Source: a virus
Taxonomy: Duplodnaviria > Caudoviricetes
Reading direction: 5' to 3' (one strand)
DNA length: 64,000 nucleotides
IMG/VR virus record: IMGVR_UViG_3300037722_001090
Both the position numbers and the translations under genes were made by a program. Shown here in pieces: positions 5,335 through 21,531 of this stretch. The notes under the pieces are model-generated. The model ran no database searches, was not told where the DNA came from, and saw nothing but the letters and a program-made list of their open reading frames with translations. Within the stretch, counting starts at the first letter, position 1, and each line of letters begins with the position of its first letter.

Positions 5335-5356
5335 TAGACTCATTTTAATAATTTAT

Positions 5357-5429: not shown

Positions 5430-5448
5430 TATTTTTAACTTTTTCTTA

Positions 5449-6130: not shown

Positions 6131-6284
6131 TGCTAGAGAACATGCGATAAGAGAGATGGCCGAAGCCGTTCATACCGGTGCGTTTACCAATTTCGCCACC
6201 CCTCCATAAAAGTGGAGGACGCAGGACTCGAACCTGCAAATATCCGGTCCCAATAGAAGTAACTCTTATCTATCACTACTAGCA
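6131..6284 (-). ncRNA. YrlA-like Y RNA (circularly permuted tRNA mimic)
   Basis: Order is T arm (GCAGG-TTCGAGT-CCTGC), loop-closed acceptor stem (TCCTCCA/TGGAGGG), D arm (TGGCGAAATTGGTAAACGC), carried on ACCGG/CCGGT, GATAAGAG/CTCTTATC and TGCTAG/CTAGCA stems; 1.2 kb downstream of Ro60. Confidence 0.82.
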
Positions 6285-6289
6285 ATCAA

Positions 6290-6652
6290 TTAATTTTTAC
6301 GATCGACTTTGACGAAGATCTCATTAGGTGCTTCAGGAAAGTATTTAAAAAGAGCAGGACAAAGCCATCCTTCAATTCCAATTACATCCTTAACAACACA
6401 GTCCGTAATAGTATACCAGTTGCCGCCCCACTCTTCGCGTGTACGAACGAGAGAGATTTGGCTACCAGGGAAATTACTAGCAGAGAAGGTAAGAGCAACA
6501 CCTTTCTCTGCTTCAGGAATATCACCAGTAAGTGCATCAATCATAAAATTGATTGCACCAACAAAAGGTTCACGAACAAGACCAACTTTGTCATCATCAA
6601 ACGCCCAGATGCCACCGTTCCTGTACGGATAGATAACCATCAGTGCATTCAT
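6290..6652 (-). CDS. DUF6717-like conserved phage protein
   Basis: IYPY...WAFDD...L.REPFV.G...GWLCPALFKYF pattern (recalled family). Confidence 0.7.
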   Translation of the reverse strand: MNALMVIYPYRNGGIWAFDDDKVGLVREPFVGAINFMIDALTGDIPEAEKGVALTFSASNFPGSQISLVRTREEWGGNWYTITDCVVKDVIGIEGWLCPALFKYFPEAPNEIFVKVDRKN

Positions 6653-6656
6653 ATGA

Positions 6657-7394
6657 TTAACGAGTCACAGCACGAATAGGAGTACGCAGCCAATCAGCTT
6701 CGCCACAGAAATCTGCAGCACGAGCCATAAGACCATTGAACTTATTGCCGAGGCCAGGATTAGTAATCTGGAACTCAAGCGTAAACGGCTTGAATCCAGC
6801 AGTAGGAAGGCTCACCTTCTGAACAACCATGCCATCGGGGGTAGTAGCAGAGCTAAGTACCGTAGCTACACCAGCACAACCGCACTGCGCATCAATGGCA
6901 GTAACAAGAGGTCCAAAAAGCCAGTCCTGACGATGATTAAATTCACGAGCAGCATGGTTAAAGGTATTTTTCAGCTTGTCAGCTACAGCTGCAGTACGAA
7001 GAGTGAATACAATGGAGTAGGGCTGAAAACCAGCAGCCACTTCATTAAGTGCAGTTTTAATAACACGAAGGCCATCAGCTGCAGCAATAACAGCACAAGT
7101 ATTGTCTTCGACAGTAGCGGCAGCAGTAGCAGGACCGGTAATACGAGCAGTAGCTTCAGCTGTGAAAAAGCGGAGAGTACGCTCGGCAGCAATAATGCGT
7201 CCAATGTTCTGAACCTTGCTGTAAGAACGGACATTGGTAAGATTAAGACGCTGAGCAACATCTTCAATTACCCAGTAATTGTCAGTTGAGCGCTTTCCAC
7301 CAGTAACGCGAGCGCCGGTTTCATCACGCACAACACATCTGTTACGAAGCTCTTGTTCAAATGCGGCAAGAGTAGGACGAATAACATCAGTCAT
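6657..7394 (-). CDS. hypothetical protein between Ro60 and the Y RNA
   Basis: ORF; start at MTDVIRP with AAGGA RBS. Confidence 0.75.
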   Translation of the reverse strand: MTDVIRPTLAAFEQELRNRCVVRDETGARVTGGKRSTDNYWVIEDVAQRLNLTNVRSYSKVQNIGRIIAAERTLRFFTAEATARITGPATAAATVEDNTCAVIAAADGLRVIKTALNEVAAGFQPYSIVFTLRTAAVADKLKNTFNHAAREFNHRQDWLFGPLVTAIDAQCGCAGVATVLSSATTPDGMVVQKVSLPTAGFKPFTLEFQITNPGLGNKFNGLMARAADFCGEADWLRTPIRAVTR

Positions 7395-7455
7395 TTTTGA
7401 TTCCTTTAAAATAGTTGTTTTAAAAAGGGGCCACACTATGTGACCCCACAGTTAA

Positions 7456-8883
7456 TTAAGCAGCATGAATAGCAAGAGACTTTTCATACTCACGAACATA
7501 GTCAATAGTTGCTTCAGAGAAGCCGTTGACATGAGTCCATTTGGAATTGTAGCCAACACCATTTTCATAGCTAGCAACATTGATAATATAGCCAAGCCCA
7601 TTAGGCTGTGCAATGCCAGTTTGGCTCTGTTCGTCAGTAAAGACGATGATACGGTCATACTTGCCATTAGTCTTGTTAATATACTCAACAGCACGATGAA
7701 GATCAGTACCGCCAAATCGCTGACTGTTCTTAATAGCCTCACGAAGAGCAAATCCACGACGAGGAGCAATCTGCTTAACGTCAGTAGAAAAGCTATAGAC
7801 ATCAACTTCTTCGCAAACTTCACGAGCAAGCATAGCAATGCCAAAGGCTGCATCCATACGAGTCATTTCGCTTTTGTCAGACATCTTAGCGCACATGGAA
7901 CCAGAGACGTCAACAAGAAGGATAGTCTTACCAGCAATCTTCTCTTGTACATCAAGACATTTCAGCATACCAGTTTCAAGAGCATCTTCATACTGAGGAG
8001 CATAGTTCGCAGCAGTAATGAAGCGATAAGGAAGAACACGTTCAGGGTTCATGCTACGAAGCGCATTCTTGATTAAGGCAGGATCAACGCCAGCTTCAGT
8101 CATTCCGCGCAAGTTACGAAGAAGTGCCAACGCACCAAGAAGATTTTTTTGCTCAGGATCAAGATTAGCATTCAGCATACGAGTGAACGTATCCTTTTTA
8201 TTCTCACCAGCGGACAGATTAGTTTCCCAGGTATCAGGAGTTGCAAGAGTGTCAGCTGCCAACTTTGCCCAGAGTGCAGCCTGAGCAGCATCCTTAGGTT
8301 TAGCGTGGCACAAGAATAGCACGTCGCGGAGCTTAATGGCACTGTTGCGATTGTATTTCGCAAGAGAATACTCATCAAACTTAGTGAACGCACGAGCAAG
8401 ACCCTTTTTCACGGAAGCTGCAATAGGAGTCTTCTTGAATACGCGCTCAGTAGTAAGCCGCATGCTGTCATAGTAGCCGTATCCTTTAGTAGCCTTTGTC
8501 TCAGTTTCCGTCCAATACATAGCAAGAAACTCAGCAAGCTCATCAGGACGCTGAATAACAGCCTCAAGAGCATCAGCGACAATATGACGATGAGTCGGAA
8601 TGCGAGCAGCCTCACGAACTAGCATGAGAGGGGCATGCCGCAGTTTAAAAGCAGTACGAGCCTCAAGCGCAAGAGCAGCAACAGTTTCCGGAGGAACAGT
8701 TGCTACCAAATTTTTGATACGCTCAGACACAGAAATACCATCTTCGTAAAAGTTATCCTCAAACAGAAGACAACCAAGAATAGTACGACGAAGCATCTCT
8801 TCGTTTTTTGCTACAACCACACTTGCGCCTGCATGATTGAGGGATCGGATAGCACGAGGTGCTGGTTTATTTGTTTTCGCCAT
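7456..8883 (-). CDS. rsr: Ro60/Rsr RNA-binding protein (TROVE + vWA)
   Basis: TROVE signature (LRHAPL, IQRPDELAEFLA, FDEYSLAKY, LRDVLFLCHAKP, ALLRNLR, VLPYRFITA) and vWA MIDAS DVSGS...FTDEQ. Confidence 0.95.
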   Translation of the reverse strand: MAKTNKPAPRAIRSLNHAGASVVVAKNEEMLRRTILGCLLFEDNFYEDGISVSERIKNLVATVPPETVAALALEARTAFKLRHAPLMLVREAARIPTHRHIVADALEAVIQRPDELAEFLAMYWTETETKATKGYGYYDSMRLTTERVFKKTPIAASVKKGLARAFTKFDEYSLAKYNRNSAIKLRDVLFLCHAKPKDAAQAALWAKLAADTLATPDTWETNLSAGENKKDTFTRMLNANLDPEQKNLLGALALLRNLRGMTEAGVDPALIKNALRSMNPERVLPYRFITAANYAPQYEDALETGMLKCLDVQEKIAGKTILLVDVSGSMCAKMSDKSEMTRMDAAFGIAMLAREVCEEVDVYSFSTDVKQIAPRRGFALREAIKNSQRFGGTDLHRAVEYINKTNGKYDRIIVFTDEQSQTGIAQPNGLGYIINVASYENGVGYNSKWTHVNGFSEATIDYVREYEKSLAIHAA

Positions 8884-8898
8884 CGGTATATTCCTTTA

Positions 8899-9081
8899 TT
8901 ATTTATTAATTAAAGCTTGTGTGAATAGAACTGCTTCATCATGACCAAAATCCTCTTTACGCAAAGCATTATATTGCTTACGTGTCATTTTTGCATTAAG
9001 GTCAAATATGGCATCACGTTCACATAGCAATTTAGCAGCTTGCTCTGTCTGGTCAATAATATGCTTAATATCGTTATTCAT
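8899..9081 (-). CDS. hypothetical protein
   Basis: Short ORF between rsr and the nucleotidyltransferase, AGGT RBS. Confidence 0.6.
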   Translation of the reverse strand: MNNDIKHIIDQTEQAAKLLCERDAIFDLNAKMTRKQYNALRKEDFGHDEAVLFTQALINK

Positions 9082-9094
9082 AATTACCTTTTTA

Positions 9095-10105
9095 CTAAAT
9101 GTTATTTAAGATTTCGCCAAATACTTCACGTTGGATAAGACGGACAAGCCAGTCTTCCCAGCGCTTACGATTTACTTCACTGGGATACTCAGAAATAGCA
9201 GTAAGCTTTTCACAAGTATCAATTAGAGATTCCATTAAGGGAAGAACTTCCGTTAAATAATCCATCTCTCCGTTTTTAATTTTTCGTAGCGTAGAGCCAC
9301 AGCTTAATGGATACTGTATAGTACCAACAGTCATTATGGAGATAAGCTGAAAAGCAGCACGAATAGCATGACTTATCGCTTTCCAATCAATACCTTCATT
9401 AGCTTCTGCCTTCTTAGCTCTAGCGCCATATTCATCATACTTCTTTTTTATGCCATCACGCATATATTCAAGAGTAACAGTTTCCTGAAACTTCTGACCA
9501 CATACTTGATACATACGATATTGGTTCTTATCTCCAGCATCAGGAGACAGTTTATGGATATGTTCACCGGCAGGCAAACAGTCCCAAGTACCATCTAGCT
9601 TAATGCTAATGTTACGATCCACAACAAAATCAAGAACCGCTTTCATTGCAATAAGACGAGAGCCTTTAACTCCATATTTAGCAGCTTGTGAGCGAGCATA
9701 TCCAATAAATGATTTTAATTCGCTTGTATAAAACTCTGATCTAGAAGCAGTCATCTCGTCCCAGATTACAGAAGTAGCAAATATTTTATCTTTAGGAATA
9801 TGCAACATATCAAGAGCAGCAGTATCGCCGTCCATAGCAAGTTTAAGGAAATAATTAAGAGAATAGAATTCAATATCTACATCATCTTTACTGTTCTTCC
9901 CATCTGTTTCTTTTGTCTTAAAATGAATAGATTTTGGATAAAGACCAAGATAAACTTCTCTTTTTGTAGGCATATAAATGCCTTTAAAGTCCCAGTCTGA
10001 ATCTTCAGTATTTGCACCATAAAGACGAGAGCCAAATACTCCAAACATTAAAACATTCAAGTTTCCTATTTCAGGAAACATTTTTAATACTTTTTGATAA
10101 TTCAT
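9095..10105 (-). CDS. RlaP/NrdC.11-like Pol-beta nucleotidyltransferase
   Basis: FGSRLYG.NTEDSDWDFKGIY motif, GYARSQAAKY, DWKAISHAIR. Confidence 0.88.
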   Translation of the reverse strand: MNYQKVLKMFPEIGNLNVLMFGVFGSRLYGANTEDSDWDFKGIYMPTKREVYLGLYPKSIHFKTKETDGKNSKDDVDIEFYSLNYFLKLAMDGDTAALDMLHIPKDKIFATSVIWDEMTASRSEFYTSELKSFIGYARSQAAKYGVKGSRLIAMKAVLDFVVDRNISIKLDGTWDCLPAGEHIHKLSPDAGDKNQYRMYQVCGQKFQETVTLEYMRDGIKKKYDEYGARAKKAEANEGIDWKAISHAIRAAFQLISIMTVGTIQYPLSCGSTLRKIKNGEMDYLTEVLPLMESLIDTCEKLTAISEYPSEVNRKRWEDWLVRLIQREVFGEILNNI

Positions 10106-10154
10106 ATATTCCTAACTAATATTTACTAGTTTAACAACCTTACTTTGATTACTG

Positions 10155-10295
10155 TCATGATAGATCGTCTGATTTAATTTGTTTTCTACAACCTTTTTTA
10201 CTTTGATCTTTCTTTTTATCAGGAACAGTAGTGTTAGGAGGTAGAATAACCCTAGGGGCAACCTTCTTCCATAAAGGTGTCTTATTGCATTTCAT
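10155..10295 (-). CDS. small basic hypothetical protein
   Basis: GGAG RBS before MKCNKT. Confidence 0.5.
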   Translation of the reverse strand: MKCNKTPLWKKVAPRVILPPNTTVPDKKKDQSKKGCRKQIKSDDLS

Positions 10296-10400
10296 GTTTA
10301 CATCTCCGACAAGCATGATATTTAGTAAGTTTGTATCCGTCAATAATATTGCCGGTAATTTCAAAATACCTATGTCCTAAAATTTTACAAATAAAACTAA

Positions 10401-10592
10401 TCATTTTGATTCTGTTCCATCAGGCATAGGGACATGAAGAGTATTAGAAAAGTGTTTAATATAATTCAGATAAAAAATAACCGAATCAAACTCTTCTTTC
10501 TTCAATGTAATACGATCAACAGGAATATCATTGCCGCTTTTAGCTTTCAACTGGATCGTATCTATCAGTGTATCAACTGCAATCATATTCAT
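10401..10592 (-). CDS. hypothetical protein
   Basis: ORF in tight operon spacing. Confidence 0.55.
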   Translation of the reverse strand: MNMIAVDTLIDTIQLKAKSGNDIPVDRITLKKEEFDSVIFYLNYIKHFSNTLHVPMPDGTESK

Positions 10593-10594
10593 TG

Positions 10595-10873
10595 TTAAGT
10601 TTCCTGTTTTATTAGTGGCTCATAAAGGAATTTTGTTTTACATCGCCTGCATTTCCATTCAGCAGGGACATTACTATATCCAATAAGTTGAATTTGCTCA
10701 TCGCCACACCTAGGACAATAAGGTGTATGATGACTAAGATGTTCACGCCTATCTGTCAACTCAAAAGTTTTTTCTAACCAACCAGGAGGTAAAGACCATT
10801 CTTCTTCATGATAAGTCTTATCGGATTGTTTCATTACTGCTCTCCAATAGGATTCAGTATTGTTATACGACAA
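10595..10873 (-). CDS. zinc-ribbon protein
   Basis: CPRCG...WKCRRC; true start may be downstream. Confidence 0.6.
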   Translation of the reverse strand: MSYNNTESYWRAVMKQSDKTYHEEEWSLPPGWLEKTFELTDRREHLSHHTPYCPRCGDEQIQLIGYSNVPAEWKCRRCKTKFLYEPLIKQET

Positions 10874-11115
10874 TTAAGCTTACCAAGTTTAGCAAAGTCA
10901 GAAAACCCAGCAGGAATTTCACCGTCTGTTTTCTTCCAATTCTTACGAGCTTGTCCTTTAGAAGGAAAGATACCAGAACAAACAAGAATATCAAACATAT
11001 CCCATTTAGAATCGATAGGAACTTGAACTACTTCTTCTTTAGGGCAACCAAAGAAAAGTTCACAATCACCTTCTTTTTCATTCCCATTTAAGATAAGAAA
11101 ATTAAATTCACTCAT
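10834..11115 (-). CDS. small protein with S4-like RNA-binding motif
   Basis: DILVCSGIFPSKGQARKNW resembles the S4 motif L...G...S.SEARR. Confidence 0.45.
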   Translation of the reverse strand: MSEFNFLILNGNEKEGDCELFFGCPKEEVVQVPIDSKWDMFDILVCSGIFPSKGQARKNWKKTDGEIPAGFSDFAKLGKLNCRITILNPIGEQ

Positions 11116-11116
11116 A

Positions 11117-11503
11117 TTATTTACACACTTTAAGCATTATAGACATAAAAAACCCTATAAACGCCATTGCACCAGAAGTGCTAAGAAGTAAAATAGGAAA
11201 GAAAACAAAAAATACATTACTAAAAAAATTTTGTTTTATATCAAAATCACGGAGAGAAATAGTTACTTTATCTCCTTCTTTGATTTGTGAAAGATATGAA
11301 TAAGAAATGTGTTGATCAATTCTCAGGCCATCACTAAATTCATAAACAGCAACAGGATGAGATGACTGTTTATATCCAGCAGGCTCGATATATAATTTTA
11401 CAATAGTTACATCTCTTGGTTTAAGTTTGTTATATTCCGGTAAATACATTAAAGAAAAACCTATAACAGTAACAATAAGCCAAACAATAAATATATTACG
11501 CAT
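11117..11503 (-). CDS. membrane protein
   Basis: N- and C-terminal hydrophobic helices. Confidence 0.65.
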   Translation of the reverse strand: MRNIFIVWLIVTVIGFSLMYLPEYNKLKPRDVTIVKLYIEPAGYKQSSHPVAVYEFSDGLRIDQHISYSYLSQIKEGDKVTISLRDFDIKQNFFSNVFFVFFPILLLSTSGAMAFIGFFMSIMLKVCK

Positions 11504-11599
11504 TACAAATGCTCCTTAATAGTTAATAGCAATACTTACAAGACAGTAAGTTCTCCTATTAAATATTAAAGACTGGGCCCTTCGGGGGCCCAGCCTTAA

Positions 11600-11800
11600 T
11601 TATATAAATCCTACAACACAGCCGATAGGAGCAACCAGAATACCAATACAGCGGATAACAAGTTCTCCAGTTATAGTTGAAAAATCAGAATTCATAACTT
11701 TCATTATGTTCCAAATCCAACCCCATGCACCAAGGCAAACTATAATCGAGAAGATAAGTTCAATGGTACTCAGTCCTTTTTCATTTTCGATCAAATTCAT
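11600..11800 (-). CDS. small membrane protein with prepilin-type N-terminus
   Basis: EKG^LSTIE then a hydrophobic stretch (G-1, E+5). Confidence 0.6.
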   Translation of the reverse strand: MNLIENEKGLSTIELIFSIIVCLGAWGWIWNIMKVMNSDFSTITGELVIRCIGILVAPIGCVVGFI

Positions 11801-11811
11801 AAGAGCTTCCT

Positions 11812-12453
11812 TTATTTGTGTTGAATCTTCCCTTGATTAAAAGGCCGTATGAAGTTCACTATATGTGACCACACACTTGCTTCATAATCGTTAGGGTCAT
11901 GATTCGGTCGCTTACGTACACCGCCCGCACCTCGATTATATGACAACACGGCTTTACCCCAACCACCAGGTCCTTTAAATTGATCCAGTTGCATTTTAAA
12001 ATAACGACTCGCTAGTCTTATATTAAAGCGATCATTAGTCAGTAGTGCAACTAGAAGTTCTTCGTCGTGATTGAATCGTCCAAGATCCGGATATTGTCTT
12101 AGTATCTCTTTCGCCGTATTAATTCGGATCTGGCAGATTCCATAAGACTTATCACCAAAGGCGCGTTTATCACCCTTTTTAAATCTTCCATTTGGATCAT
12201 TATAGGCATAGCGATCATCGCCAACAATTCCGCCTGGACTTGCAACTTTGGATCCACGTAAACTTTCCTGCCATAGAATTGACTGAATAGTTTCTGGGAA
12301 TCCGATACGAGTACCTTCCTCATATGCAATTACCAGAAGATTAGCTTGTCTTTCTGTCACAACACTAGGATACTCATGTGATGCACCAAAAGAGTTACCG
12401 ACCCATACGAGTAAGAGTATCAACATCCCACTCATTAGTATCAGTTTCTTCAT
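11812..12453 (-). CDS. lytic transglycosylase (SLT) with signal peptide
   Basis: WQES catalytic Glu, SYGICQI, FNIRLASRYF, AVLSYNRG. Confidence 0.85.
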   Translation of the reverse strand: MKKLILMSGMLILLLVWVGNSFGASHEYPSVVTERQANLLVIAYEEGTRIGFPETIQSILWQESLRGSKVASPGGIVGDDRYAYNDPNGRFKKGDKRAFGDKSYGICQIRINTAKEILRQYPDLGRFNHDEELLVALLTNDRFNIRLASRYFKMQLDQFKGPGGWGKAVLSYNRGAGGVRKRPNHDPNDYEASVWSHIVNFIRPFNQGKIQHK

Positions 12454-12655
12454 TAACTTCCCCTTCGCCAGTCATTTCCATAATAAGTTCTTGTTCAATT
12501 TCAATAGCTCGCAATTCAACAATGTCAAGATCAACAATATTAAATGCTTCGCAAATCTCTATAAAAGACTGAAGCATTGCCTTAGTCTTTACAAGTTCCA
12601 TTAATAGAAACTCCTGCATTTGTTTTAATTCGTTAACTGATATGTCCATAGTCAC
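12395..12655 (-). CDS. acidic hypothetical protein
   Basis: ORF, co-oriented. Confidence 0.55.
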   Translation of the reverse strand: MTMDISVNELKQMQEFLLMELVKTKAMLQSFIEICEAFNIVDLDIVELRAIEIEQELIMEMTGEGEVNEETDTNEWDVDTLTRMGR

Positions 12656-12791
12656 CTATTAAATCATTCTCCAAATATCAGCCATCGGTTTTCCGTTCCA
12701 CGAATGACCCATTTCGCTGAATCGGCCAAAAGAAATATCGATCTCATTTAGAGTCTCGAATTCTTTAATGACTGTGCATTCTTCTTCTTTA

Positions 12792-13944: not shown

Positions 13945-14076
13945 ATAAGTTAACCTTTTCTTAAAAAAAAGAGGGACTGCGTGCCATTACCTATACTGAC
14001 ATACTCGGTTTCCCGTCATTGTCATCATAAGTTAGACATACAATCCCTCTTGACCTTTTCAGTCTTTCACTGGGAA

Positions 14077-14286: not shown

Positions 14287-14510
14287 TTTACATTCCTTTT
14301 AATGACGGGTTATTTTTCTTTAGTGGAAATTTCTTTCTCACCAACATAAAGTTCGTGAGCTTTTTCCTGAATCGTGTTAATTTTGCTTTTAACACTGACG
14401 AGCTTATCGGTTGTATATTCACAACCAAGATAAAACCCAAGCGTAAAAAACATCAAAGCAATGATAAGTGATTTCATTGTACGTCTCCTGAAGTTGATAC
14501 TTAAAAAAAT

Positions 14511-14653
14511 CTATTCACAGCGGATTTGCACCTATATCTATTGACTTATGTTCTCCTGTGTATCTCACAGTTAACATTACGCTAAGAATAGCAAAAGACT
14601 TCCTGCTGTCTCCTCCTTTAAAGGGAGGCGCTCTCCTACTAAGCTAGTGAATA
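14511..14653 (-). tRNA. tRNA (anticodon TTA) interrupted by a 72-nt insertion in the T arm
   Basis: Acceptor TATTCAC/GTGAATA, D GCTT/GAGC, CCTCC-CTTTAAA-GGAGG; T stem AGC|GG-TGCAAAT-CCGCT split by 14533-14604. Confidence 0.7.
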
Positions 14654-14836
14654 GAAAATCTGAGTTTATCCTACGGCTCCACATGCTATAACTCTAGGTT
14701 ACATGTTTCACTGCCGGTAAATGATAATTGCCACTAAGTCTCTTATCTCAGAATGGAAACGCAGCCGATCTCTATGTATCGGCTCGATTTTCTTGGCAAT
14801 AAAACAATTAAAATCTTTTTCATACTTCTTCTAAAA

Positions 14837-14895
14837 TGGAGCCGGGGCATGGGTGCTACCCATTACGGCAACTAGTATTTTATCCGATTCCCGGC
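14837..14895 (-). ncRNA. miniature tRNA-like RNA with CCA end
   Basis: GCCGGG/CCCGGC + T-CCA, ATGGG/CCCAT T-like hairpin, no D or anticodon arms. Confidence 0.5.
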
Positions 14896-15014
14896 ATAAA
14901 CGTATTTGATAATTCAAAGAATAGCTCGGAGACACGCATGTCATTCTCCCATTTCGCCATAGTTGCCCGATAGTTTTTAGCTGGACACTATTCTTTATTA
15001 ATACTGATTGGTCA

Positions 15015-15299
15015 CTTGCTCCTTAAAGCACACAAAACCAAGCTCATTTACTGTTCTTGTCGACAGAACAGATAGCCTCGTTTGTCTATGACAATTCTAA
15101 ATTACTAGCGTCACCATTAACCTATCCAAGAGGCGGTGTGGTTTTTGGTTGCGGGAAGAGCAGCTAGTTTATAATATAAACTCCCTCACTCTTATCCATG
15201 GATCTTGCTGCGCGCATTACACCTATAACCTGCTTGAGAGCAGGCTTCAAGGTCGCAACCAGTGACGGTAACTCAGCTTTGTGTGCTTTAAGCAGCAAG
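15015..15299 (-). ncRNA. candidate structured RNA closed by a 22-bp inverted repeat
   Basis: cttgctccttaaagcacacaaa (15015-36) vs tttgtgtgctttaagcagcaag (15278-99); nested cgtcac/gtgacg and tggttgcg/cgcaacca. Confidence 0.55.
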
Positions 15300-15454
15300 C
15301 GTCCACCTATTTCGTAGTTCAGTGGACGCTTACTACCTCTTCAGAGATCAAACAGTAGTCTTGATAGACTTATAACCATTTCCGGCCATTAGCAGGATGG
15401 TATCTATCGTGAAAGTCGTATAAATTTTCACTTAAAAAATGATCTTACTTGAGC

Positions 15455-15907
15455 TTAGAGCTCGAAGGTGCTCGGACGAAGACCGAGTTTGTTGCAAATT
15501 TCGCGAACAACCTTCTTTTCGTTGTCATCGAAATCGCCATCAGCTCCACCGATCAGGATGCCGACGCGGACAACCAGAGTGCGAGCTTCTTCGGGTGCGG
15601 CAACGATCTTGGCAATAGCCTTCATGGCCTCGTCACGGCCCATCGAAGTGTCGAGCTGGAAGATGCCGTCATATTTCTCGAAAGCTTTCTTGACAGCTTC
15701 GGGCGTATGCCCGGCCATGGTCGGATGATTCTGAACGAACTGGAGAGCTTTCAGCTTTTCCGAAGCATCGAACGAGCCATCAGCCCAACCGACCATCACG
15801 ACGGTAGCCATGGCAGCGTCGAAGATGTCGCCGGTCATGAATTTCTTTGCTTCACCGACAATTTGCCCAAGCATTTCTTTGAGCTTGGAAATAAATCCCC
15901 ATGCCAT
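15455..15907 (-). CDS. terB: TerB-family protein
   Basis: WADGSFDASEK...VGILIGGADGDFDDNEKKVVREIC..LGL. Confidence 0.92.
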   Translation of the reverse strand: MAWGFISKLKEMLGQIVGEAKKFMTGDIFDAAMATVVMVGWADGSFDASEKLKALQFVQNHPTMAGHTPEAVKKAFEKYDGIFQLDTSMGRDEAMKAIAKIVAAPEEARTLVVRVGILIGGADGDFDDNEKKVVREICNKLGLRPSTFEL

Positions 15908-15956
15908 AATCTGTACTCCTTTGTTGGTTGTTTAAAAAAGAATTAACTAAAAAGCT

Positions 15957-17077
15957 CCAGCTTTGCACTGGTAAGTCGGGGCCTTAACTTAATACAATAG
16001 GCTTCTCCATATGCATTAACCAGTTTTCTCGAAATAAAATTAGCTGATTTCACAGGCAGCCGTACTAGGCTCTTTAAATAATTCCCGTTTCTTCACTTAG
16101 CCGGATAATTATACGGCACCAATAATTCGATAACCACAATAGGTATACATACTTCAGTCTTTGTCTAACCATCGTTGTTCCTGCCACCACTAGCTTACGG
16201 TTCTCAGATGGATTGCAAGAAAGATTTTAGGTGGATATCTCCCATATGCAATGACTAGACTCCTCTCACGAACGTCTTATTTGAGTATTATTAGACGTTA
16301 TCTTGCTCCTTATCACCGAACACAGCAGCAGCTTTATTATACCGTCCTCAATAGTGAGGGTTTCAGTGGCGCTGAACTAATCAACTGTGAACCAATTACG
16401 ACAATAAGGCAACGTTTCTCAACTCGACAAGATTTGGGGCCTTAGAATTTTGTATCTAGATAAATCAAGCGCTCTTCAGCATACCCCTTTTCAGTTACTT
16501 GGTTTATTGTCCCAAGCAAGTATACACCGCGTCATTGATTCCATATCCACGTCAGGACTTAGGAGTGCTTTTCGCACTAATCTATTACAGTCTCCCACAC
16601 TTTTTAGTTAAACTAAAAATATAAATACACTAGGTCAAAGGGAACGGCTACCTAGTATTGCCCGTCAAAGATATTTAGGCTCTATGATATACCCCTATTT
16701 GAAATCATAGACAGTCCATTGATCTTACGCTCAGTGTCAAGGACAAATTAAGCCAGATTTTCATCACTGTCCATTCAGTCACAGTCAACTCGTTAGTTAG
16801 TCGGACGTCTGTCATAGCTGGATACCAAATAAGACATCAATACTCGCCAGACAAAGTAAAGATGAATACTTACTCTTAAAAGCACCTTATTCCTATATTC
16901 GGTACAATCCTAAGACATTATCCCTCAAGTGGCCGGTTTATCCACGCTTCCCAGGTCATTCGTTATTGGAAGTATCCACTAGGATTGAGTAAGCACCAGT
17001 TGTTAGTCGGGAGATTGCACCATATCAGGCTACCCATAAATTTCTGCGAATTACAGCAGCAGGGACTAACAAGCTGG
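15957..17077 (-). ncRNA. candidate 1.1-kb large structured ncRNA
   Basis: No sense-strand ORF of 60 aa or more; ends CCAGCTT/AAGCTGG are complementary; many hairpins, including GTGC-GAAAA-GCAC. Confidence 0.5.
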
Positions 17078-18043
17078 TTAGTTGCTTGGTTTTTCAGGCC
17101 AAGCAAGGCTGGCAAGAACTCCACCAGTCAGCAGGGCGCCAACAATGGCGAGTGATGCCAGAGCAGAAATGTGAAACAGGTTAAAGGTACCAAAAATCAT
17201 CTTGGCACCGATAAAAACGAGTATGAAAATGATAGCCGTTTCCAAGTGACAGAGATAGCGCTTAGCGGCTGTCAGAAGAAAATACATGGACCGTAGTCCA
17301 AGAATGGCAAAGATGTTCGAGGTATAGACCAGGAACGGTTCACGAGTAACAGCGATAACAGCAGGTACGCTATCAAACGCAAACATAACATCACTTACTT
17401 CCAGACAAACAAGGCAGAGAAACAATGGTGTCACAGTCCATTTGCCGGAAACGTGAGTCAAAAAATTGTGTCCATCGAGATATGGATGAACCGGAAAGAT
17501 CTTTTTGGTCCACCGCACAACAGCATGGTTTGTATAGTCAATTTCCTCATCATCATCAGATGAAGAAGACGATTTCCACATTGCATAAGCCGTATAAAGC
17601 ACGATTACGCCAAATGCAAGAAGAACCCACTCACTCATGAGTGCGAGACTAGTACCAAGCCCGATAAACAAAAAACGCAACACCAGTGCTCCGATAATAC
17701 CATAGTACAGAACACGATGCTGATAGGCGTCTTTAACGCCAAAGGAGGCAAAGATTGCCATGAAGACAAACAAATTGTCAACTGCAAGGCTTTTCTCAAG
17801 CAGATATCCAGCAAGAAAAAGTGAAGACTTTTCCATGCCATGAAACACACCGAGATAGCCAGCAAAGGCAAGAGATACGGCAATCCAAATACCAGACCAG
17901 ATTGCAGCATTCTTAACACTGATAGGCTTGTCATCACCATGCGCCTTAAGATCGACGATCAACGCAGTAACGATAACAATTGCAAAAATAGCAACACTCC
18001 AGAGAGAGTAGCCACCAACAACACTCGCCAAATAGGCTTGCAT
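17078..18043 (-). CDS. terC: TerC/Alx-family integral membrane protein
   Basis: YLLEKSLAVDNLFVF, QHRVLYYGIIGALVLR, DVMFAFDSVPAVIAVT, VYTSNIFAILGLRSMYF. Confidence 0.95.
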   Translation of the reverse strand: MQAYLASVVGGYSLWSVAIFAIVIVTALIVDLKAHGDDKPISVKNAAIWSGIWIAVSLAFAGYLGVFHGMEKSSLFLAGYLLEKSLAVDNLFVFMAIFASFGVKDAYQHRVLYYGIIGALVLRFLFIGLGTSLALMSEWVLLAFGVIVLYTAYAMWKSSSSSDDDEEIDYTNHAVVRWTKKIFPVHPYLDGHNFLTHVSGKWTVTPLFLCLVCLEVSDVMFAFDSVPAVIAVTREPFLVYTSNIFAILGLRSMYFLLTAAKRYLCHLETAIIFILVFIGAKMIFGTFNLFHISALASLAIVGALLTGGVLASLAWPEKPSN

Positions 18044-18103
18044 CTGTGATTGTACCTTTCTAAAGAACTAGGGGCCCGTAGGCCCCCAGTAACTGTGCCG
18101 GGA

Positions 18104-18502
18104 TTAAATACCCAGCTCGACCATTTTGGACACGAGAGCGGCGTCCATGGAGACGGCGTTGGCCTTGATACCGGCGAGAAGAGCCCGCTCAACATCATCG
18201 ACCTGGCCATCGCTCATGATGGCTTTGATCAGATAGGACGCTTCGGCGGCATCCACGACACCGGGGGTTTTTTCGTCGTTGAGGCAGAAGGACGTGCCGG
18301 CCTTGACAACCAGGGAAGTGAACTCGGGGCATTTGGTTTTGGCGGACTCGTTCAGGTCGAAGAGGAAATCCATTTCCTCCTGATCGATCTTGCCATCGGC
18401 GAAGATGATGTCGCTGATTTTGGTGACTTCTTCGGCGTCAATTGCGCCATCGGCGAGGATGAGGGCTTTCAGTTCTTTGAGATCCATTTTTTTGTTCTCC
18501 AT
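18104..18502 (-). CDS. TerB-like protein
   Basis: LADGAIDAEE...FADGKIDQEE..FLFDL...SDGQVDDVER acidic repeats. Confidence 0.75.
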   Translation of the reverse strand: MENKKMDLKELKALILADGAIDAEEVTKISDIIFADGKIDQEEMDFLFDLNESAKTKCPEFTSLVVKAGTSFCLNDEKTPGVVDAAEASYLIKAIMSDGQVDDVERALLAGIKANAVSMDAALVSKMVELGI

Positions 18503-18543
18503 GTAAGAGGTTATTGATCGAATGGCTCATTGGCCACAATAAA

Positions 18544-18711
18544 CTACTGTGCGTTGATGCGAGACTGGATTTTGGCGCGTTGTTTTGCAGCGCCGATGCC
18601 CACACCGAGACGGCGGTCCAGATCAGCAAGCTGTTGCTGAGGAGTGAGGGAGTTCCATGCATTATTTCTTTCCACGGCTTCCCGTTTCTTCAAGCTTTCA
18701 TTATGCAGCAT
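18544..18711 (-). CDS. small conserved phage protein
   Basis: GGAG RBS before MLHNES; LTPQQQLADLDRRLG pattern. Confidence 0.6.
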   Translation of the reverse strand: MLHNESLKKREAVERNNAWNSLTPQQQLADLDRRLGVGIGAAKQRAKIQSRINAQ

Positions 18712-18826
18712 AATACTCCTTTTTGATGTTGATGGTTTAAAAAATCCACATATTTGAAATAAACCAAAAAGCACAAGCAAAGATAGTAAGAATAGTCTTC
18801 ATTTTAACTCCAAGATAGCATGATCA

Positions 18827-20236
18827 CTAATCTCCGGATGAAGCACCATCTCTACCTTCAGCGCCAATAGCATATCTTTTAGTAAACCCGATTAACTCAT
18901 CAACAGTGTTGTGGTTTGGGTTCATAGTGACATGTTCAAGCAGTGCCTTCAGTATTTCTCCGATAAGTGGTCCACGTTTCTTACCAACAATTGCCATAAC
19001 ATCATGGCCATTAATAGCAAGATCCTTCACTGATAGCGGATCTCCTGCTTCAATAATAGCAAGACATCGTGCTCTAAATTTAAAGAAATCCTCCATATTA
19101 AATGGAGGTCGACTTGAAACTGAATCTGCAAACTGAAGGCAGAACAGATTTTCAAGATTGTCAACACCTACTCGGCGGATGAACTTACGTGCACCACTAT
19201 CAGGCATTGTATGATGTCGGTTCATATGTTCACGAATGATAATACAAACCCGATCCCGAAGATGGCACGGATAATTTAACCGATCCTGCCCAAGAATAGC
19301 AAATGCCATTGTCTCACTCTTCAATTGATGCATATAGTAATGACCAACACCATCATCACCAAAGCTTTGAGTGTGTACCTTACCGATATCATGTAACAGA
19401 CCACCTAAACGCTGTTCTATTACCTTATCAGTCATCTCCATTGCACGGAGAGAATGCTCAAGAAGATCCCATCTGTGATGAGGATTCTTTTGATCATACT
19501 TGTACATAGCAGCAACTTCAGGAAGGATCTCCTTACAGAGCCCTGTCTTAAGAAGCAAGCGCATGCCTTCAGCACAATGATCAGAAAGTAATATTTGATC
19601 GAGTTCCATGCGAATAGCATCACCAGAACAATGCGTAACTAGGCTTGCATGATCACAGAGCGCATCGAAGGTCACTTTATCAATGCTAAATTGCTTTGTA
19701 GTCGCCTGCCTTACTGCTCGCATCATACGTAGCTTATCTTGCTTGAATCGATCTGCTGGGTTACCAATAGCACGAATGACTTTTTTCTCACAGTCATCTA
19801 TGCCACCAACCCAGTCCAGTATTACACCTTCAATGTCCATAAATAGCCCATTGACAGTAAAATCCCTACGAATAACATCGTCATAAGGATTGAGTGAAAA
19901 CGTTACAGCTTCTGGCCTACGACCATCGCCTTCTTCGCTATCTAGCCTGAATGTTGTAACTTCACACTCCTGCGTAACAGCAAGGCGAATAGTAATAGTA
20001 CCATACTTACCACCAGTGTCATATGCGAGATTGCCAAACATATTCATGACTTCTTTTGGAGTTGCACTTGTAGCAACATCCCAGTCATGAGGCTCAAGAT
20101 TAAGCAGAAGGTCACGAATAGCACCTCCTGCCACAAAAGCAAGATGATCTTGTTTGTGAAGATGTTCAAGAATAGCACGTACATGACTTGGTATTAAAGA
20201 TGGGTTTATTTGCATCATATCTGGTTCAGGAATCAT
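18827..20236 (-). CDS. cca: CCA-adding tRNA nucleotidyltransferase with HD domain
   Basis: GGAIRD...DWDVAT, VTTFR, RRDFTVNG, DKLRMMRAVR, LLHDIGK. Confidence 0.93.
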   Translation of the reverse strand: MIPEPDMMQINPSLIPSHVRAILEHLHKQDHLAFVAGGAIRDLLLNLEPHDWDVATSATPKEVMNMFGNLAYDTGGKYGTITIRLAVTQECEVTTFRLDSEEGDGRRPEAVTFSLNPYDDVIRRDFTVNGLFMDIEGVILDWVGGIDDCEKKVIRAIGNPADRFKQDKLRMMRAVRQATTKQFSIDKVTFDALCDHASLVTHCSGDAIRMELDQILLSDHCAEGMRLLLKTGLCKEILPEVAAMYKYDQKNPHHRWDLLEHSLRAMEMTDKVIEQRLGGLLHDIGKVHTQSFGDDGVGHYYMHQLKSETMAFAILGQDRLNYPCHLRDRVCIIIREHMNRHHTMPDSGARKFIRRVGVDNLENLFCLQFADSVSSRPPFNMEDFFKFRARCLAIIEAGDPLSVKDLAINGHDVMAIVGKKRGPLIGEILKALLEHVTMNPNHNTVDELIGFTKRYAIGAEGRDGASSGD

Positions 20237-20670
20237 CAGTTTTTCTTCCTTAATGGCAAAACTTTAGCATCAGCTTCGCCAAGATCAAATGGCCACTGAT
20301 CTCTTGATGTTATACTAAGCATTGAAAGGCATTTTCTTGCTACACGAAGCCAGTATCCCTCTTCTGTCTCCCAAGAAGTAGCACGATCTGCAAGCTTAGA
20401 ACCGGCCTTCCAAGTATTCCTTGGATGAATATCACTAACAAACTCGATAAACATACGATCATCAGAGCAGGCAGCAATGTGAGTATAAGTCATCTCAAGA
20501 AGCTTGACGACAATACATTCATCTTCAAGATGCTCAGCACTTACTGCACACCACTGACTATGAATCTGTTTCAGGTCGTCAAAGATGTTTTCAGACCGAT
20601 GATAGTGACCCTTGGCATACAGATAGTAATGACGCAAAGGGTTGAGCTTACTCGTATCCATAAAAATCAT
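20236..20670 (-). CDS. hypothetical protein
   Basis: ORF abutting the cca start (translational coupling). Confidence 0.7.
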   Translation of the reverse strand: MIFMDTSKLNPLRHYYLYAKGHYHRSENIFDDLKQIHSQWCAVSAEHLEDECIVVKLLEMTYTHIAACSDDRMFIEFVSDIHPRNTWKAGSKLADRATSWETEEGYWLRVARKCLSMLSITSRDQWPFDLGEADAKVLPLRKKN

Positions 20671-21385
20671 CTCCTAGCTTAATAATTGAATTATACAAGC
20701 CAATGAATTTCGAATGCATTTGACAGTCTACATGCATATGCCCATGGTACCATTTTTTAAAACGTAAAACTTGTGACATATCGCGTAAGTGCAAAGATAC
20801 AAAATCTATATCTGCCTTACTATGATGTGACAGTCCTAGATAATAATCAAGAATATGCTCAGGAGCCGTATGTGAAATAACATAATCAACACTTTCGTGT
20901 TTCATAATGTTCTTCCATGCAAGATCAAGCTCCTCTGCGCTAGGATATTCCCTAGCCCACCATCCCTTATTACCTGATTTCTTTTCAAACGCTAACCTAT
21001 TTTCTTTATCGATTGAAAGTCCACCACCAAAGGTGAATATACGATCACCGTTAATAGTATAAATACGACCACGACGAAGATGAAGAACTGATTCACGAAC
21101 CACGCCAACATCAGAACCGTAACGCTCTTCAGTTGGTAAGGCATCTAGCAAATCATAGTTTTCATGATTACCATCGATATAAAGCAATGTAAATGGCAAG
21201 TCATTCATCCAGTCCAGCCACCATTTCTCTGATCTATCATTACACCACAGCCACCCGAAATCTCCTGCTATTATAACAGTATCTTTCTTCGTAAAGCCTT
21301 TGCCATGGTGAAACTTAGATCCTAACTTTTGTGTATCCTGGACAATACCATGTGTATCACCAGTAATCATATTGATACCATTCAT
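20648..21385 (-). CDS. calcineurin-like metallophosphoesterase
   Basis: GDTHG, GDFG, DGNHEN, SHTAP, HGHMH motifs. Confidence 0.92.
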   Translation of the reverse strand: MNGINMITGDTHGIVQDTQKLGSKFHHGKGFTKKDTVIIAGDFGWLWCNDRSEKWWLDWMNDLPFTLLYIDGNHENYDLLDALPTEERYGSDVGVVRESVLHLRRGRIYTINGDRIFTFGGGLSIDKENRLAFEKKSGNKGWWAREYPSAEELDLAWKNIMKHESVDYVISHTAPEHILDYYLGLSHHSKADIDFVSLHLRDMSQVLRFKKWYHGHMHVDCQMHSKFIGLYNSIIKLGDDFYGYE

Positions 21386-21401
21386 GGTAATCTCCTAAAA
21401 T

Positions 21402-21531
21402 TGGGAGGGGGAGGTAGGAATCGAACCTACAATCTCAGCCTTTACATGTTCTCAACGCATGTGGGATACTACTAGGCACTCATGATTACCTATTTTCACC
21501 AGCTGGGCTTTACCAATTAAGCTACTCCCCC
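21402..21531 (-). tRNA. tRNA with about 60 nt inserted in the anticodon loop
   Basis: GGGGGAG/CTCCCCC acceptor, GCTT-AATTGGTA-AAGC D arm, GTAGG-TTCGATT-CCTAC T arm; CAGCT/GGCTG stem encloses about 60 nt. Confidence 0.75.

What the first reader, a model, noticed from the sequence alone, without database searches (positions are those of the whole stretch)
6131..21531. Dispersed phage RNA repair/tRNA-protection system
Ro60, Y RNAs and the RlaP-like nucleotidyltransferase are clustered. A CCA-adding enzyme with HD domain and a metallophosphoesterase lie further along, next to an interrupted tRNA. Ro, RlaP and end-healing enzymes are established partners in RNA-repair neighbourhoods, usually with RtcB, which is absent from this window. 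With the many atypical tRNAs, this suggests a counter-defence against host tRNA-cleaving immunity, possibly working by 3' trimming and re-tailing rather than ligation (inference).
Basis: partly seen in the sequence, partly recalled or inferred. Interest (0 to 1): 0.8.

Follow-up and report, generated by a model that had tools for sequence, protein, structure and literature searches.

The report
Phage Ro60–Y RNA module plus tRNA-tail enzymes
A large uncultured phage carries a Ro60 protein with its small Y RNAs, an RlaP nucleotidyltransferase and a CCA-adding enzyme; all are real, but they form separate units of a known phage RNA-maintenance toolkit rather than one new system.

Summary
- Ro60, 7456-8883
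- RlaP, 9095-10105
- a YrlA-type Y RNA, 6125-6289
- a CCA-adding enzyme with an HD domain, 18827-20236
- a metallophosphoesterase (MPE), 20648-21385
- a tRNA with about 62 nt in place of its anticodon loop, 21406-21531

A second, short Y RNA lies at 5351-5434, outside the stated span. RtcB, Rnl1, Rnl2 and Pnk-like genes are absent from the window.

The "one dispersed system" reading is only partly supported. RlaP-g60-Ro60 looks like one operon, and Ro60 and RlaP lie within about 15 kb in two unrelated large phages. However, 19 of 19 other Ro60 phages carry Ro60 and Y RNAs with no RlaP, CCA enzyme, Rnl2 or RtcB.

The MPE family sits in DNA-replication modules elsewhere. Its nearest solved relative is the lariat-debranching enzyme Dbr1, not an RNA end-healing phosphatase.

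Five tRNA genes lack an encoded CCA, which gives the CCA enzyme an ordinary job.

The rest of the genome could not be fetched, so "no ligase" is untested. Other first-stage notes of this scan on overlapping windows of this same genome describe the Y RNAs and report an RNA ligase upstream.

Verdict: a new member of a kind already described for large phages.

The parts
5351..5434 (-). Short Y RNA (YrlB-like). It has the Ro-binding stem only, with no tRNA-like module, and lies just downstream of tRNA-Pro.
   Evidence: Model R1 scores 43.9 bits, E 2e-11. It keeps the family 5' and 3' motifs, with compensatory changes in both stems relative to the long Y RNA.
6125..6289 (-). Long YrlA-type Y RNA. 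Order: Ro-binding bulged stem, T arm, loop-closed acceptor stem, D arm.
   Evidence: Read directly from the sequence and the fold. It scores 184 bits on model R1, of which it is a seed sequence. In the family alignment all 34 pairs covary and 94% of cells are paired, against 44-47% in slid controls. Rfam's own YrlA model does not detect it at E<=1.
6290..6652 (-). DUF6717 protein (120 aa), lying directly before the Y RNA.
   Evidence: PF20475, 9.2e-11. No homologue in the other Ro60 loci at tblastn E<=1e-4.
6657..7436 (-). Protein with no family hit. The longest ORF is 259 aa; the likely true start is the ATG after an AAGGAG site, 13 codons in.
   Evidence: No hit in Pfam, PHROGs, NCBIfam or the Atlas. 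The start was judged from the translation and its overlap with the terminator.
7427..7447 (-). Intrinsic-terminator-like hairpin with a T run, immediately after the Ro60 stop codon.
   Evidence: 9-bp stem with 6 GC pairs, followed by TTTTT.
7456..8883 (-). Ro60 (TROVE plus vWA domains, with a MIDAS-type DVSGS motif).
   Evidence: Pfam; phrog_850 3e-44. It is 37-67% identical to Ro60 of more than 100 phage records and contigs.
8899..9081 (-). Small ORF (60 aa) between RlaP and Ro60.
   Evidence: Listed as an ORF. No family hit. Not conserved in the relative.
9095..10105 (-). RlaP-family Pol-beta nucleotidyltransferase. The FGS and DSDWD catalytic motifs are present.
   Evidence: PF10127 2e-17; phrog_388 9e-85. 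Motifs read in the translation. It is 63% identical to the copy adjacent to Ro60 in the relative.
10315..10343 (-). Sigma-70-like promoter match upstream of RlaP. This is a consensus match only.
   Evidence: TTGACG, 17 nt, TATCAT; 10 of 12 positions match.
18827..20236 (-). Class II CCA-adding enzyme with a C-terminal HD phosphohydrolase domain.
   Evidence: Pfam; phrog_2244; NCBIfam CCA models; PDB 1MIV 8e-47. The GGAIRD, DWD and RRDFTVN motifs were read in the translation.
20236..20670 (-). Protein with no family hit (144 aa). It overlaps the end of the MPE gene and the start of the CCA gene.
   Evidence: Coordinates. No family or Atlas hit. Not conserved in the relative.
20648..21385 (-). 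Calcineurin-like metallophosphoesterase with all catalytic motifs intact. Dbr1 is its nearest solved relative.
   Evidence: Pfam; phrog_1649. Invariant GDxH, GD, GNHE, H and GHxH motifs. The family profile hits only Dbr1 in the PDB, 2.8e-6. Model pLDDT is 92. Foldseek gives Dbr1 at 4.6e-9. VIA-align gives Dbr1 Z 15.3, against 13.7 for the next generic MPE.
21406..21531 (-). tRNA-like gene with normal acceptor, D and T arms. About 62 nt replace the anticodon loop, and no CCA is encoded. It lies 20 nt upstream of the MPE gene.
   Evidence: Rfam tRNA 51.4 bits; fold; 3' end read. It is absent upstream of the MPE gene in the relative.

Best explanation
The span holds two separate transcription units of RNA-handling genes, separated by about 8.7 kb of unrelated genes (Ter proteins, a lytic transglycosylase, small membrane proteins, non-coding tracts). 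It is not one dedicated system.

**Unit 1: a Ro60 ribonucleoprotein module**
- It comprises RlaP-g60-Ro60, then a terminator, then two further ORFs followed by a long YrlA-type Y RNA. A short Y RNA follows beyond tRNA-Pro.
- By analogy with bacterial and Thermus-phage Ro60, the Ro60 ring binds the bulged stem of the Y RNAs. The tRNA-like module then recruits tRNA-handling enzymes or a host 3'-to-5' exonuclease such as PNPase to damaged or misfolded RNAs.
- RlaP is predicted to add nucleotides to RNA 3' ends. This step is inferred and has no biochemical support.

**Unit 2: tRNA-like leader, MPE, g144 and the CCA enzyme**
- The CCA enzyme completes the five phage tRNA genes that lack an encoded CCA and rebuilds damaged tails.
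- Its HD domain may clear 3' or cyclic phosphates, as reported for E. coli Cca. That is from my own knowledge and was not tested here.
- The MPE is an active-looking phosphodiesterase of unknown substrate. It is probably not an RNA end-healing enzyme.

Together these genes belong to the tRNA supply and repair gene set already described for large phages.
For: **Gene identities:**

**Operon layout**
- Gaps of 13 and 15 nt separate RlaP, g60 and Ro60. There is a promoter match at 10315-10343 and a terminator at 7427-7447.
- The MPE, g144 and CCA genes overlap end to end.

**The Y RNAs are real**
- The model built on three copies finds 1-3 elements within 1 kb of Ro60 in almost all of 25 phage Ro60 loci.
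- 94% of cells are paired, against 44-47% in slid controls, and all 34 pairs covary.

**Separate units, not one system**
- 0 of 19 other Ro60 phages have RlaP, a CCA enzyme, Rnl2 or RtcB. This set includes six records at least 90% complete and one complete GenBank genome.
- One 100%-complete 102-kb phage has Ro60 and Y RNAs alone.
- The CCA enzyme is about 48 kb and about 105 kb from Ro60 in the two complete large phages that have both.

**Ro60-RlaP link**
- Adjacent here and in the relative.
- About 3.6 kb apart in G003 and about 13 kb apart in a 357-kb Brevundimonas phage.

**An ordinary job for the CCA enzyme:** the Gly, Tyr, Ala and Glu tRNA genes and the interrupted tRNA lack an encoded CCA; 10 of 14 canonical tRNA genes encode it.

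**MPE**
- Homologues at 52% and 47% identity lie among DNA polymerase, DNA ligase, exonuclease and nucleotide-metabolism genes.
- The family is absent from four of five Ro60 phages checked genome-wide.

**Literature:** PMC7824862 (RlaP, CCA enzyme and TROVE in jumbo phages); PMC4201824 (phage Y RNAs; CCA addition to M. smegmatis YrlA); PMC12135203 (phage Ro60, Y RNAs and host PNPase).
Against: - Conserved order MPE, CCA enzyme, RlaP, Ro60, Y RNAs, tRNA array in the nearest relative. This could reflect selection for linkage, or simply shared ancestry, since Ro60 is 67% identical.
- The whole region sits beside the tRNA array, so a common function on tRNAs is plausible.
- No expression or binding data exist for this phage.
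- RlaP has no demonstrated activity in any system known to me.
- Many of the comparison contigs are fragments, so absences there are soft.
Confidence: 0.6

Rival explanations
1. All parts form one ligase-independent counter-defence. Cleaved or blocked tRNA 3' ends are trimmed (Ro60-Y RNA with a host exonuclease), cleaned (MPE, HD domain) and re-tailed (RlaP, CCA enzyme).
For: - No RtcB, Rnl1 or Rnl2 in the window, nor in 103.7 kb of the nearest relative.
- An HD domain is fused to the CCA enzyme.
- RlaP is adjacent to Ro60.
- tRNA-tail cleavage is now a proven immune strategy, and its authors say phages would need an unknown countermeasure (PMC12851939).
Against: - No co-occurrence of these parts in 19 of 19 other Ro60 phages.
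- MPE family contexts are DNA replication.
- The relative is only 65% complete and has a Pnk-like kinase.
- Unverified scan notes report an RNA ligase and a 2H phosphoesterase upstream in this genome.
- RlaP tracks RNA ligases in jumbo phages (PMC7824862).
Confidence: 0.12
2. Classical heal-and-seal repair. RlaP, and perhaps Ro60-Y RNA, serve an ATP-dependent RNA ligase with a kinase/phosphatase encoded outside the window. The window shows only part of a larger toolkit.
For: - RlaP distribution mirrors RNA ligases in jumbo phages (PMC7824862).
- Three of the four large phages that have both Ro60 and RlaP also have Rnl2, two of them within about 15 kb of Ro60.
- The relative encodes an AAA_33 kinase whose solved relatives include T4 and Clostridium polynucleotide kinases.
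- Scan notes mention a ligase upstream.
Against: - No Rnl1, Rnl2, RtcB or 2H family hit in 103.7 kb of the relative.
- The relative's 499-aa ligase resembles DNA ligases.
- The notes are unverified, and I could not fetch that DNA.
Confidence: 0.2
3. The Ro60-Y RNA module is not for repair. It captures host PNPase or other exonucleases to remodel host RNA decay or disturb host RNA-guided immunity. The CCA enzyme is pure tRNA maturation.
For: - Thermus phage Ro60 and its Y RNAs bind host PNPase, and the authors suggest immune evasion (PMC12135203).
- Most Ro60 phages carry no repair enzyme at all.
- Five tRNA genes here need CCA addition.
Against: - RlaP is adjacent to Ro60 here and lies near it in two other large phages.
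- Y RNAs are interleaved with the tRNA genes.
Confidence: 0.15

Closest known systems
Jumbo-phage RNA repair gene set (Iyer et al. 2021, PMC7824862; concept from Burroughs and Aravind 2016)
   Same: RlaP, a CCA-adding enzyme, a TROVE/Ro60 protein with a tRNA-like RNA partner, and many phage tRNAs, in one large phage.
   Different: No RNA ligase, kinase or 2H enzyme is visible in the 64-kb window. RlaP is directly adjacent to Ro60. Y RNAs lie downstream of Ro60 and are interleaved with tRNA genes.
Salmonella rsr-yrlBA-rtcBA operon and bacterial YrlA/YrlB (PMC4201824, PMC7790460)
   Same: Ro60 with one long Y RNA that mimics tRNA (T arm, closed acceptor stem, D arm) and one short Y RNA.
   Different: No RtcB, RtcA or RtcR. 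The Ro-binding motif is a relaxed variant: the family consensus is GUGGYGWAG and the window reads GUAGUGAUAG, where YrlA has GNCGAAG. Rfam's YrlA model misses it.
Thermus phage phiLo Ro60 with Yrl1 and Yrl2 (PMC12135203)
   Same: Phage-encoded Ro60 with two adjacent Y-like RNAs.
   Different: In phiLo, and in most phage loci found here, the Y RNAs lie just upstream of Ro60. Here RlaP occupies that place. Sequence identity was not measured.
E. coli-type multifunctional CCA-adding/repair enzyme
   Same: Class II head domain plus an HD domain.
   Different: The head is closest to Bacillus-type CCA enzymes. It scores below NCBIfam equivalog cut-offs. It is phage-encoded.
Dbr1 RNA lariat debranching enzyme
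   Same: Nearest solved relative of the MPE by profile, by Foldseek and by VIA-align.
   Different: The first motif has Asp (GDTHG), whereas, from memory, Dbr1 has Cys there. There is no room for the Dbr1 C-terminal domain: 245 aa against 349 residues in the solved chain. The fold score is only about 1.6 Z above generic MPEs.

Membership tests
Ro60 / TROVE | TROVE (HEAT-repeat ring) domain followed by a vWA domain | tested here: met
   PF05731 4.7e-13; PF25045 3.2e-11
Ro60 / TROVE | MIDAS motif DxSxS in the vWA domain | tested here: met
   DVSGS read in the translation
Ro60 / TROVE | Y RNA gene nearby | tested here: met
   6125-6289 and 5351-5434
YrlA-type Y RNA (Rfam RF02553) | 5'/3' terminal stem with an internal loop, then T arm, loop-closed acceptor stem and D arm | tested here: met
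   covariation
YrlA-type Y RNA (Rfam RF02553) | GNCGAA(N)G motif in the 5' strand | tested here: inconclusive
   The family consensus is GUGGYGWAG and some members read GGCGAAG exactly. The window copies read GUAGUGAUAG and AUAGUGUUAG.
YrlA-type Y RNA (Rfam RF02553) | Reaches the Rfam gathering score | tested here: not met
   No hit at E<=1 on the window copy. Paralogues in the relative reach 41.9 and 29.7 bits against the cut-off of 69.
YrlA-type Y RNA (Rfam RF02553) | Bound by Ro60 in vivo | not testable with these tools
   Needs immunoprecipitation
RlaP (PF10127) | Pfam model above its cut-off, with Pol-beta G[GS] and DxD motifs | tested here: met
   64.2 bits against the cut-off of 23; FGS and DSDWD
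RlaP (PF10127) | Association with an RNA ligase | tested here: inconclusive
   None in the window, nor in 103.7 kb of the relative. The rest of the genome was not available.
Class II CCA-adding enzyme | Head domain with GGxVRD, DxD and RRD motifs, plus the RNA-binding body | tested here: met
   PDB ranking
Class II CCA-adding enzyme | CCA rather than poly(A) or partial addition | not testable with these tools
   The ranking favours CCA enzymes (8e-47 against 1e-24), but an assay is needed.
RNA end-healing phosphoesterase (Pnkp-type MPE) | Linked to a polynucleotide kinase and a ligase, or closest to known healing phosphatases | tested here: inconclusive
   No kinase or ligase neighbour. Family contexts are DNA replication. 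The listed fold neighbours are Dbr1 and generic MPEs.
Dbr1 | Cys in the first metal motif and a C-terminal domain | tested here: not met
   GDTHG; 245 aa in total. The Cys criterion is from memory.
Rsr-RtcB-RtcA repair operon | RtcB ligase encoded with Ro60 | tested here: not met
   No RtcB in the window

The most novel reading that the evidence does not exclude
RlaP and the HD-bearing CCA enzyme form a ligase-free pathway that rebuilds tRNA 3' tails, with Ro60-Y RNA and a host exonuclease preparing the ends. [quoted passage not shown] This would answer immunity aimed at the acceptor end, such as Cas12a3 cleavage that removes ACCA, for which no phage countermeasure is known (PMC12851939). From memory, toxins that pyrophosphorylate the tRNA CCA end or add extra nucleotides to it could be countered the same way. 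The long Y RNA's tRNA-like acceptor could itself be cut and CCA-tailed, as in M. smegmatis (PMC4201824).
Probability: 0.1. Interest if true: 0.8.

Novelty: new member of a known kind. Interest (0 to 1): 0.32.

Why it matters
Phage-encoded Ro60, Y RNAs, RlaP and CCA-adding enzymes have been catalogued, but almost none has a tested function.

This locus offers a compact test set: one RlaP-Ro60 operon, two Y RNAs and one HD-bearing CCA enzyme. Such a set could show whether phages rebuild tRNA tails after immune attack, a question sharpened by the 2026 discovery of tail-cleaving Cas12a3.

The survey here gives two further results:
- Ro60 with Y RNAs is usually a self-sufficient phage module.
- The covariance model finds Y RNA candidates that Rfam's YrlA model does not report in the window or reports only below threshold in the relative.

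Tried and rejected
- **Rfam YrlA model:** it does not report the window's Y RNA at E<=1. Its only hit in the window is a weak one across two tandem tRNAs at 2242-2379, the known false-positive type.
- **Fetching the rest of the genome failed:**
  - No genome is held.
  - No exact match in viral or metagenome contigs.
  - Two window proteins near the start are not on record.
  - The same phage (99.99% identical) was found only as short JGI contigs lying inside the window.
- **Sequencing runs:** no RNA holder is listed.
- **g259 and g144:** no usable Atlas hits.
- **Single-sequence PDB searches:** nothing for the MPE and only marginal hits for RlaP.
- **Known RNA-healing phosphatases:** none appears among the listed fold matches of the MPE. 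That is an absence from a list, not an exclusion.
- **Is the interrupted tRNA a non-permuted Y RNA?** The model gives only 14 bits and the motif order is wrong for that layout. Rejected.
- **Is it a conserved leader of the MPE-CCA operon?** It is absent in the relative. Rejected.
- **Duplex energies** between the Y RNA and the two tRNA inserts are not better than shuffles.
- **blastn of 14400-17100 against phages:** no match.
- **No macro domain or other repair family** in the small ORFs around 21.4-23.8 kb.
- **Complex prediction was not used**, because I claim no protein-protein binding.
- **Burroughs and Aravind 2016** is not held in the library.

Full report
**What is there**

The window is part of a large, tRNA-rich, uncultured phage with about 39% GC. 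A terminase, a portal and a capsid gene lie at 46-59 kb. Near-identical DNA occurs in sediment and soil metagenomes. No close relative is in the GenBank phage set.

All the genes of interest are on the minus strand, downstream of a 14-gene tRNA array. The annotations are:

- **7456-8883:** Ro60, with TROVE and Ro60-type vWA domains.
- **9095-10105:** RlaP (phrog_388).
- **18827-20236:** class II CCA-adding enzyme with an HD domain. Its best solved relatives are bona fide CCA-adding enzymes (1MIV, 8e-47), well ahead of poly(A) polymerases at 1e-24.
- **20648-21385:** calcineurin-like metallophosphoesterase, MPE.
- **21406-21531:** a tRNA with normal acceptor, D and T arms and about 62 nt where the anticodon loop should be.

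Between the RlaP and CCA genes lie unrelated genes. These include small ORFs, an SLT lytic transglycosylase, TerB, TerC and a second TerB-like gene, and about 2 kb without ORFs.

**The Y RNAs**

Directly after a DUF6717 gene, the minus strand of 6125-6289 reads, in order:

- a long terminal stem with an internal loop;
- a T arm with GGUUCGAGUCC;
- an acceptor-like stem closed by a loop;
- a D arm.

This is the permuted tRNA-mimic layout described for bacterial YrlA (PMC4201824).

The nearest relative is an IMG/VR contig of 103.7 kb whose Ro60 is 67% identical. It has two such elements in the same place. I built a covariance model from these three copies. The model then found the following:

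- 1-3 elements within 1 kb of Ro60 in almost all of 25 phage Ro60 loci, usually just upstream and on the same strand.
- On that alignment, 94% of cells form standard pairs, against 44-47% when partners are slid. All 34 pairs show compensatory changes. The alignment is fitted to the model, so this overstates somewhat.
- A second element in the window at 5351-5434 (43.9 bits). It has the Ro-binding stem only and compensatory changes in both helices.

The family 5' motif is GUGGYGWAG followed by GUUACUUC, and the 3' motif is CGnuuGUUCC. This is a relaxed form of the published GNCGAAG motif.

Rfam's YrlA model misses the window copy. It gives sub-threshold hits to two paralogues in the relative.

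Other first-stage notes of this scan describe the same two elements, plus five more upstream of my window. I verified only the two inside the window.

**Transcription units (predicted)**

*Unit 1.* RlaP, a 60-aa ORF and Ro60 are separated by 13 and 15 nt. A sigma-70-like match precedes RlaP, and a strong hairpin with a T run follows the Ro60 stop codon. In the relative, RlaP and Ro60 are 11 nt apart. After the terminator come two further ORFs: a protein with no detectable family, probably starting 13 codons inside the longest ORF, and the DUF6717 protein. The long Y RNA follows, with a terminator-like hairpin at 6063-6079.

*Unit 2.* The MPE, g144 and CCA genes overlap end to end. The interrupted tRNA sits 20 nt upstream of the MPE start.

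**Is it one system?**

The counts below are hits per records searched.

| Set searched | RlaP | CCA enzyme | Rnl2 | Rnl1 | RtcB |
|---|---|---|---|---|---|
| Five Ro60 phage records or contigs of 97-357 kb | 4/5 | 3/5 | 3/5 | 1/5 | 1/5 |
| 19 further Ro60 phage records (six at least 90% complete, one complete GenBank genome) | 0/19 | 0/19 | 0/19 | not searched | 0/19 |

- One 100%-complete 102-kb phage in the first set has Ro60 and Y RNAs with none of the other genes.
- Ro60 with Y RNAs is therefore normally a self-sufficient module. The other genes appear only in large genomes, where co-occurrence is expected anyway.

Ro60 and RlaP do show spatial linkage:

- adjacent in this lineage;
- about 3.6 kb apart on contig G003, with Rnl2 genes on either side;
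- about 13 kb apart in a 357-kb Brevundimonas phage, with an RNA ligase and tRNAs between them.

The CCA enzyme shows no such linkage. It lies about 48 kb and about 105 kb from Ro60 in the two complete large phages that have both.

The order MPE, CCA enzyme, RlaP, Ro60, Y RNAs, tRNA array is kept only in the close relative. That is not independent evidence.

**The metallophosphoesterase**

- All five catalytic motifs are invariant across 30 homologues.
- A homologue at 52% identity lies between DNA polymerase A and an ATP-dependent DNA ligase, next to a 5'-3' exonuclease and SbcC.
- A homologue at 47% identity lies among DNA ligase, thymidylate synthase and dUTPase genes.
- In GenBank the family is mostly in actinophages, annotated as esterase or phosphoesterase.
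- Among the five Ro60 phages checked genome-wide, only the close relative has it.
- A family profile hits only the lariat-debranching enzyme Dbr1 in the PDB (2.8e-6).
- A confident model (pLDDT 92) also ranks Dbr1 first by Foldseek (4.6e-9) and by VIA-align. There Dbr1 scores Z 15.3, rmsd 3.7 over 208 residues, only about 1.6 Z above generic MPEs.
- It is not a Dbr1 member. The first motif has Asp where, from memory, Dbr1 has Cys, and the Dbr1 C-terminal domain is missing.
- Nothing ties it to RNA end healing. Its substrate is open.

**The CCA enzyme and the tRNAs**

Ten of the 14 canonical tRNA genes encode CCA. The Gly, Tyr, Ala and Glu genes and the interrupted tRNA do not. A phage CCA enzyme therefore has an ordinary maturation role.

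E. coli Cca's HD domain is reported to hydrolyse 2',3'-cyclic and other terminal phosphates (my own knowledge, not tested here). The fused HD domain could therefore also clean damaged ends.

The long Y RNA has a seven-position acceptor (six pairs and one G-G mismatch), then a discriminator A and a C. This resembles M. smegmatis YrlA, which is cut by RNase P and receives CA in vivo (PMC4201824). That is a possible second substrate, by inference only.

**Ligation or not**

The window has no RtcB, Rnl1, Rnl2 or Pnk-like gene, by Pfam scans and by six-frame search.

The relative's 103.7 kb (65% complete) also lacks RtcB, Rnl1, Rnl2 and 2H family hits. Beyond its tRNA array it does carry two relevant genes:

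- an AAA_33 kinase whose solved relatives include T4 and Clostridium polynucleotide kinases;
- a T4-like DNA ligase.

Unverified first-stage notes on an overlapping window say this genome has an RNA ligase and a 2H phosphoesterase upstream. I could not retrieve that DNA. "Re-tailing instead of ligation" is therefore untested, and if those notes hold it is unlikely.

**Comparison with what is known**

Iyer et al. (PMC7824862) already list RlaP, CCA-adding enzymes and a TROVE protein with a tRNA-like partner as RNA repair and counter-defence genes of jumbo phages. Chen et al. (PMC4201824) reported Y RNAs next to Ro60 in phages. A Thermus phage Ro60 with two Y-like RNAs has been solved and binds host PNPase (PMC12135203). 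The finding is a new member of this kind.

The points that differ are:

- the direct RlaP-Ro60 operon;
- Y RNAs placed downstream of Ro60 and interleaved with tRNA genes;
- a divergent Ro-binding motif.

The most interesting reading still open is that RlaP plus the HD-bearing CCA enzyme rebuild tRNA tails after acceptor-end attack. Cas12a3 removes ACCA, and its discoverers state that phages would need an unknown countermeasure (PMC12851939). I give this about 10%.

**Verdict**

Novelty is low to moderate, and interest is 0.32.

Noticed in passing
window 6136-6143, 14548-14555, 21446-21453: The 8-mer GAGAACAU occurs five times in the window on both strands. Three of these are in special RNAs: the inserts of both interrupted tRNAs, and, as its complement, the conserved 3' strand of the long Y RNA. 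In a permutation test, an 8-mer shared by both inserts that also matches a Y RNA arose in about 0.1% of shuffles.
   Followed up: partly
window 14511-14653 (-): A second interrupted tRNA-like gene. It has a UUA anticodon, which would read the UAA stop codon, and about 70 nt inserted in the T-arm region. Rfam tRNA gives 26.6 bits; the fold z-score is -3.1.
   Followed up: partly
window 14660-15452 (-): An ORF-free tract downstream of terB that folds far better than shuffles (z -6.1, 20 shuffles). A 28-nt long-range stem (15009-15036 with 15278-15305) closes a domain of about 240 nt. No Rfam hit and no match in GenBank phages.
   Followed up: partly
window 15957-17077 (-): A 1.1-kb ORF-free tract between terC and terB. 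The fold z-score is only -0.6 over 16090-17077. No Rfam hit. Absent from the relative.
   Followed up: partly
window 15455-15907, 17078-18043, 18104-18502 (-): TerB, TerC and a second TerB-like gene sit between the RlaP and CCA genes. terB is richer in GC than its surroundings. No TerB or TerC match in the relative's locus L004.
   Followed up: partly
window 2917-2990 and 4095-4177 (-): Two tRNAs that ARAGORN calls with two-base anticodons, so their anticodon loops are of irregular size. Both encode CCA.
   Followed up: no
window 99-109, 917-927, 1438-1448, 4206-4216 (-): T-loop motifs (GGTTCRANTCC, one mismatch allowed) that belong to no called tRNA. Rfam gives a weak tRNA-Sec hit at 905-980. 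They may be further odd tRNAs or tRNA fragments.
   Followed up: no
L004 15160-20231: The relative carries at least five more Y-RNA-like elements scattered through its tRNA array (model R1, 33-62 bits). Two of them are also seen weakly by Rfam's YrlA model.
   Followed up: partly
window 22043-22816 (+), 272-796 (-), 4638-5189 (-): Homing-endonuclease genes (GIY-YIG with NUMOD3, and two HNH types) lie beside the interrupted tRNA and inside the tRNA array.
   Followed up: no
window 33711-37334 (-): A 1207-aa ORF with no Pfam or PHROG family and no tblastn match in 50,697 phage records.
   Followed up: no
window 31345-31989 (-): A 214-aa protein with a C-terminal ParE-like toxin domain (1.7e-19).
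   Followed up: no
window 43713-44720 (+): A second, unrelated metallophosphoesterase (335 aa), lying before the terminase gene.
   Followed up: no
L073 4772-12789 (relative contig G001): Beyond its tRNA array the relative encodes a ThiF/E1, JAB and E2 set, a reverse transcriptase, a Pnk-like kinase with an upstream 187-aa ORF, a T4-like DNA ligase, NAPRTase and Nudix genes.
   Followed up: partly
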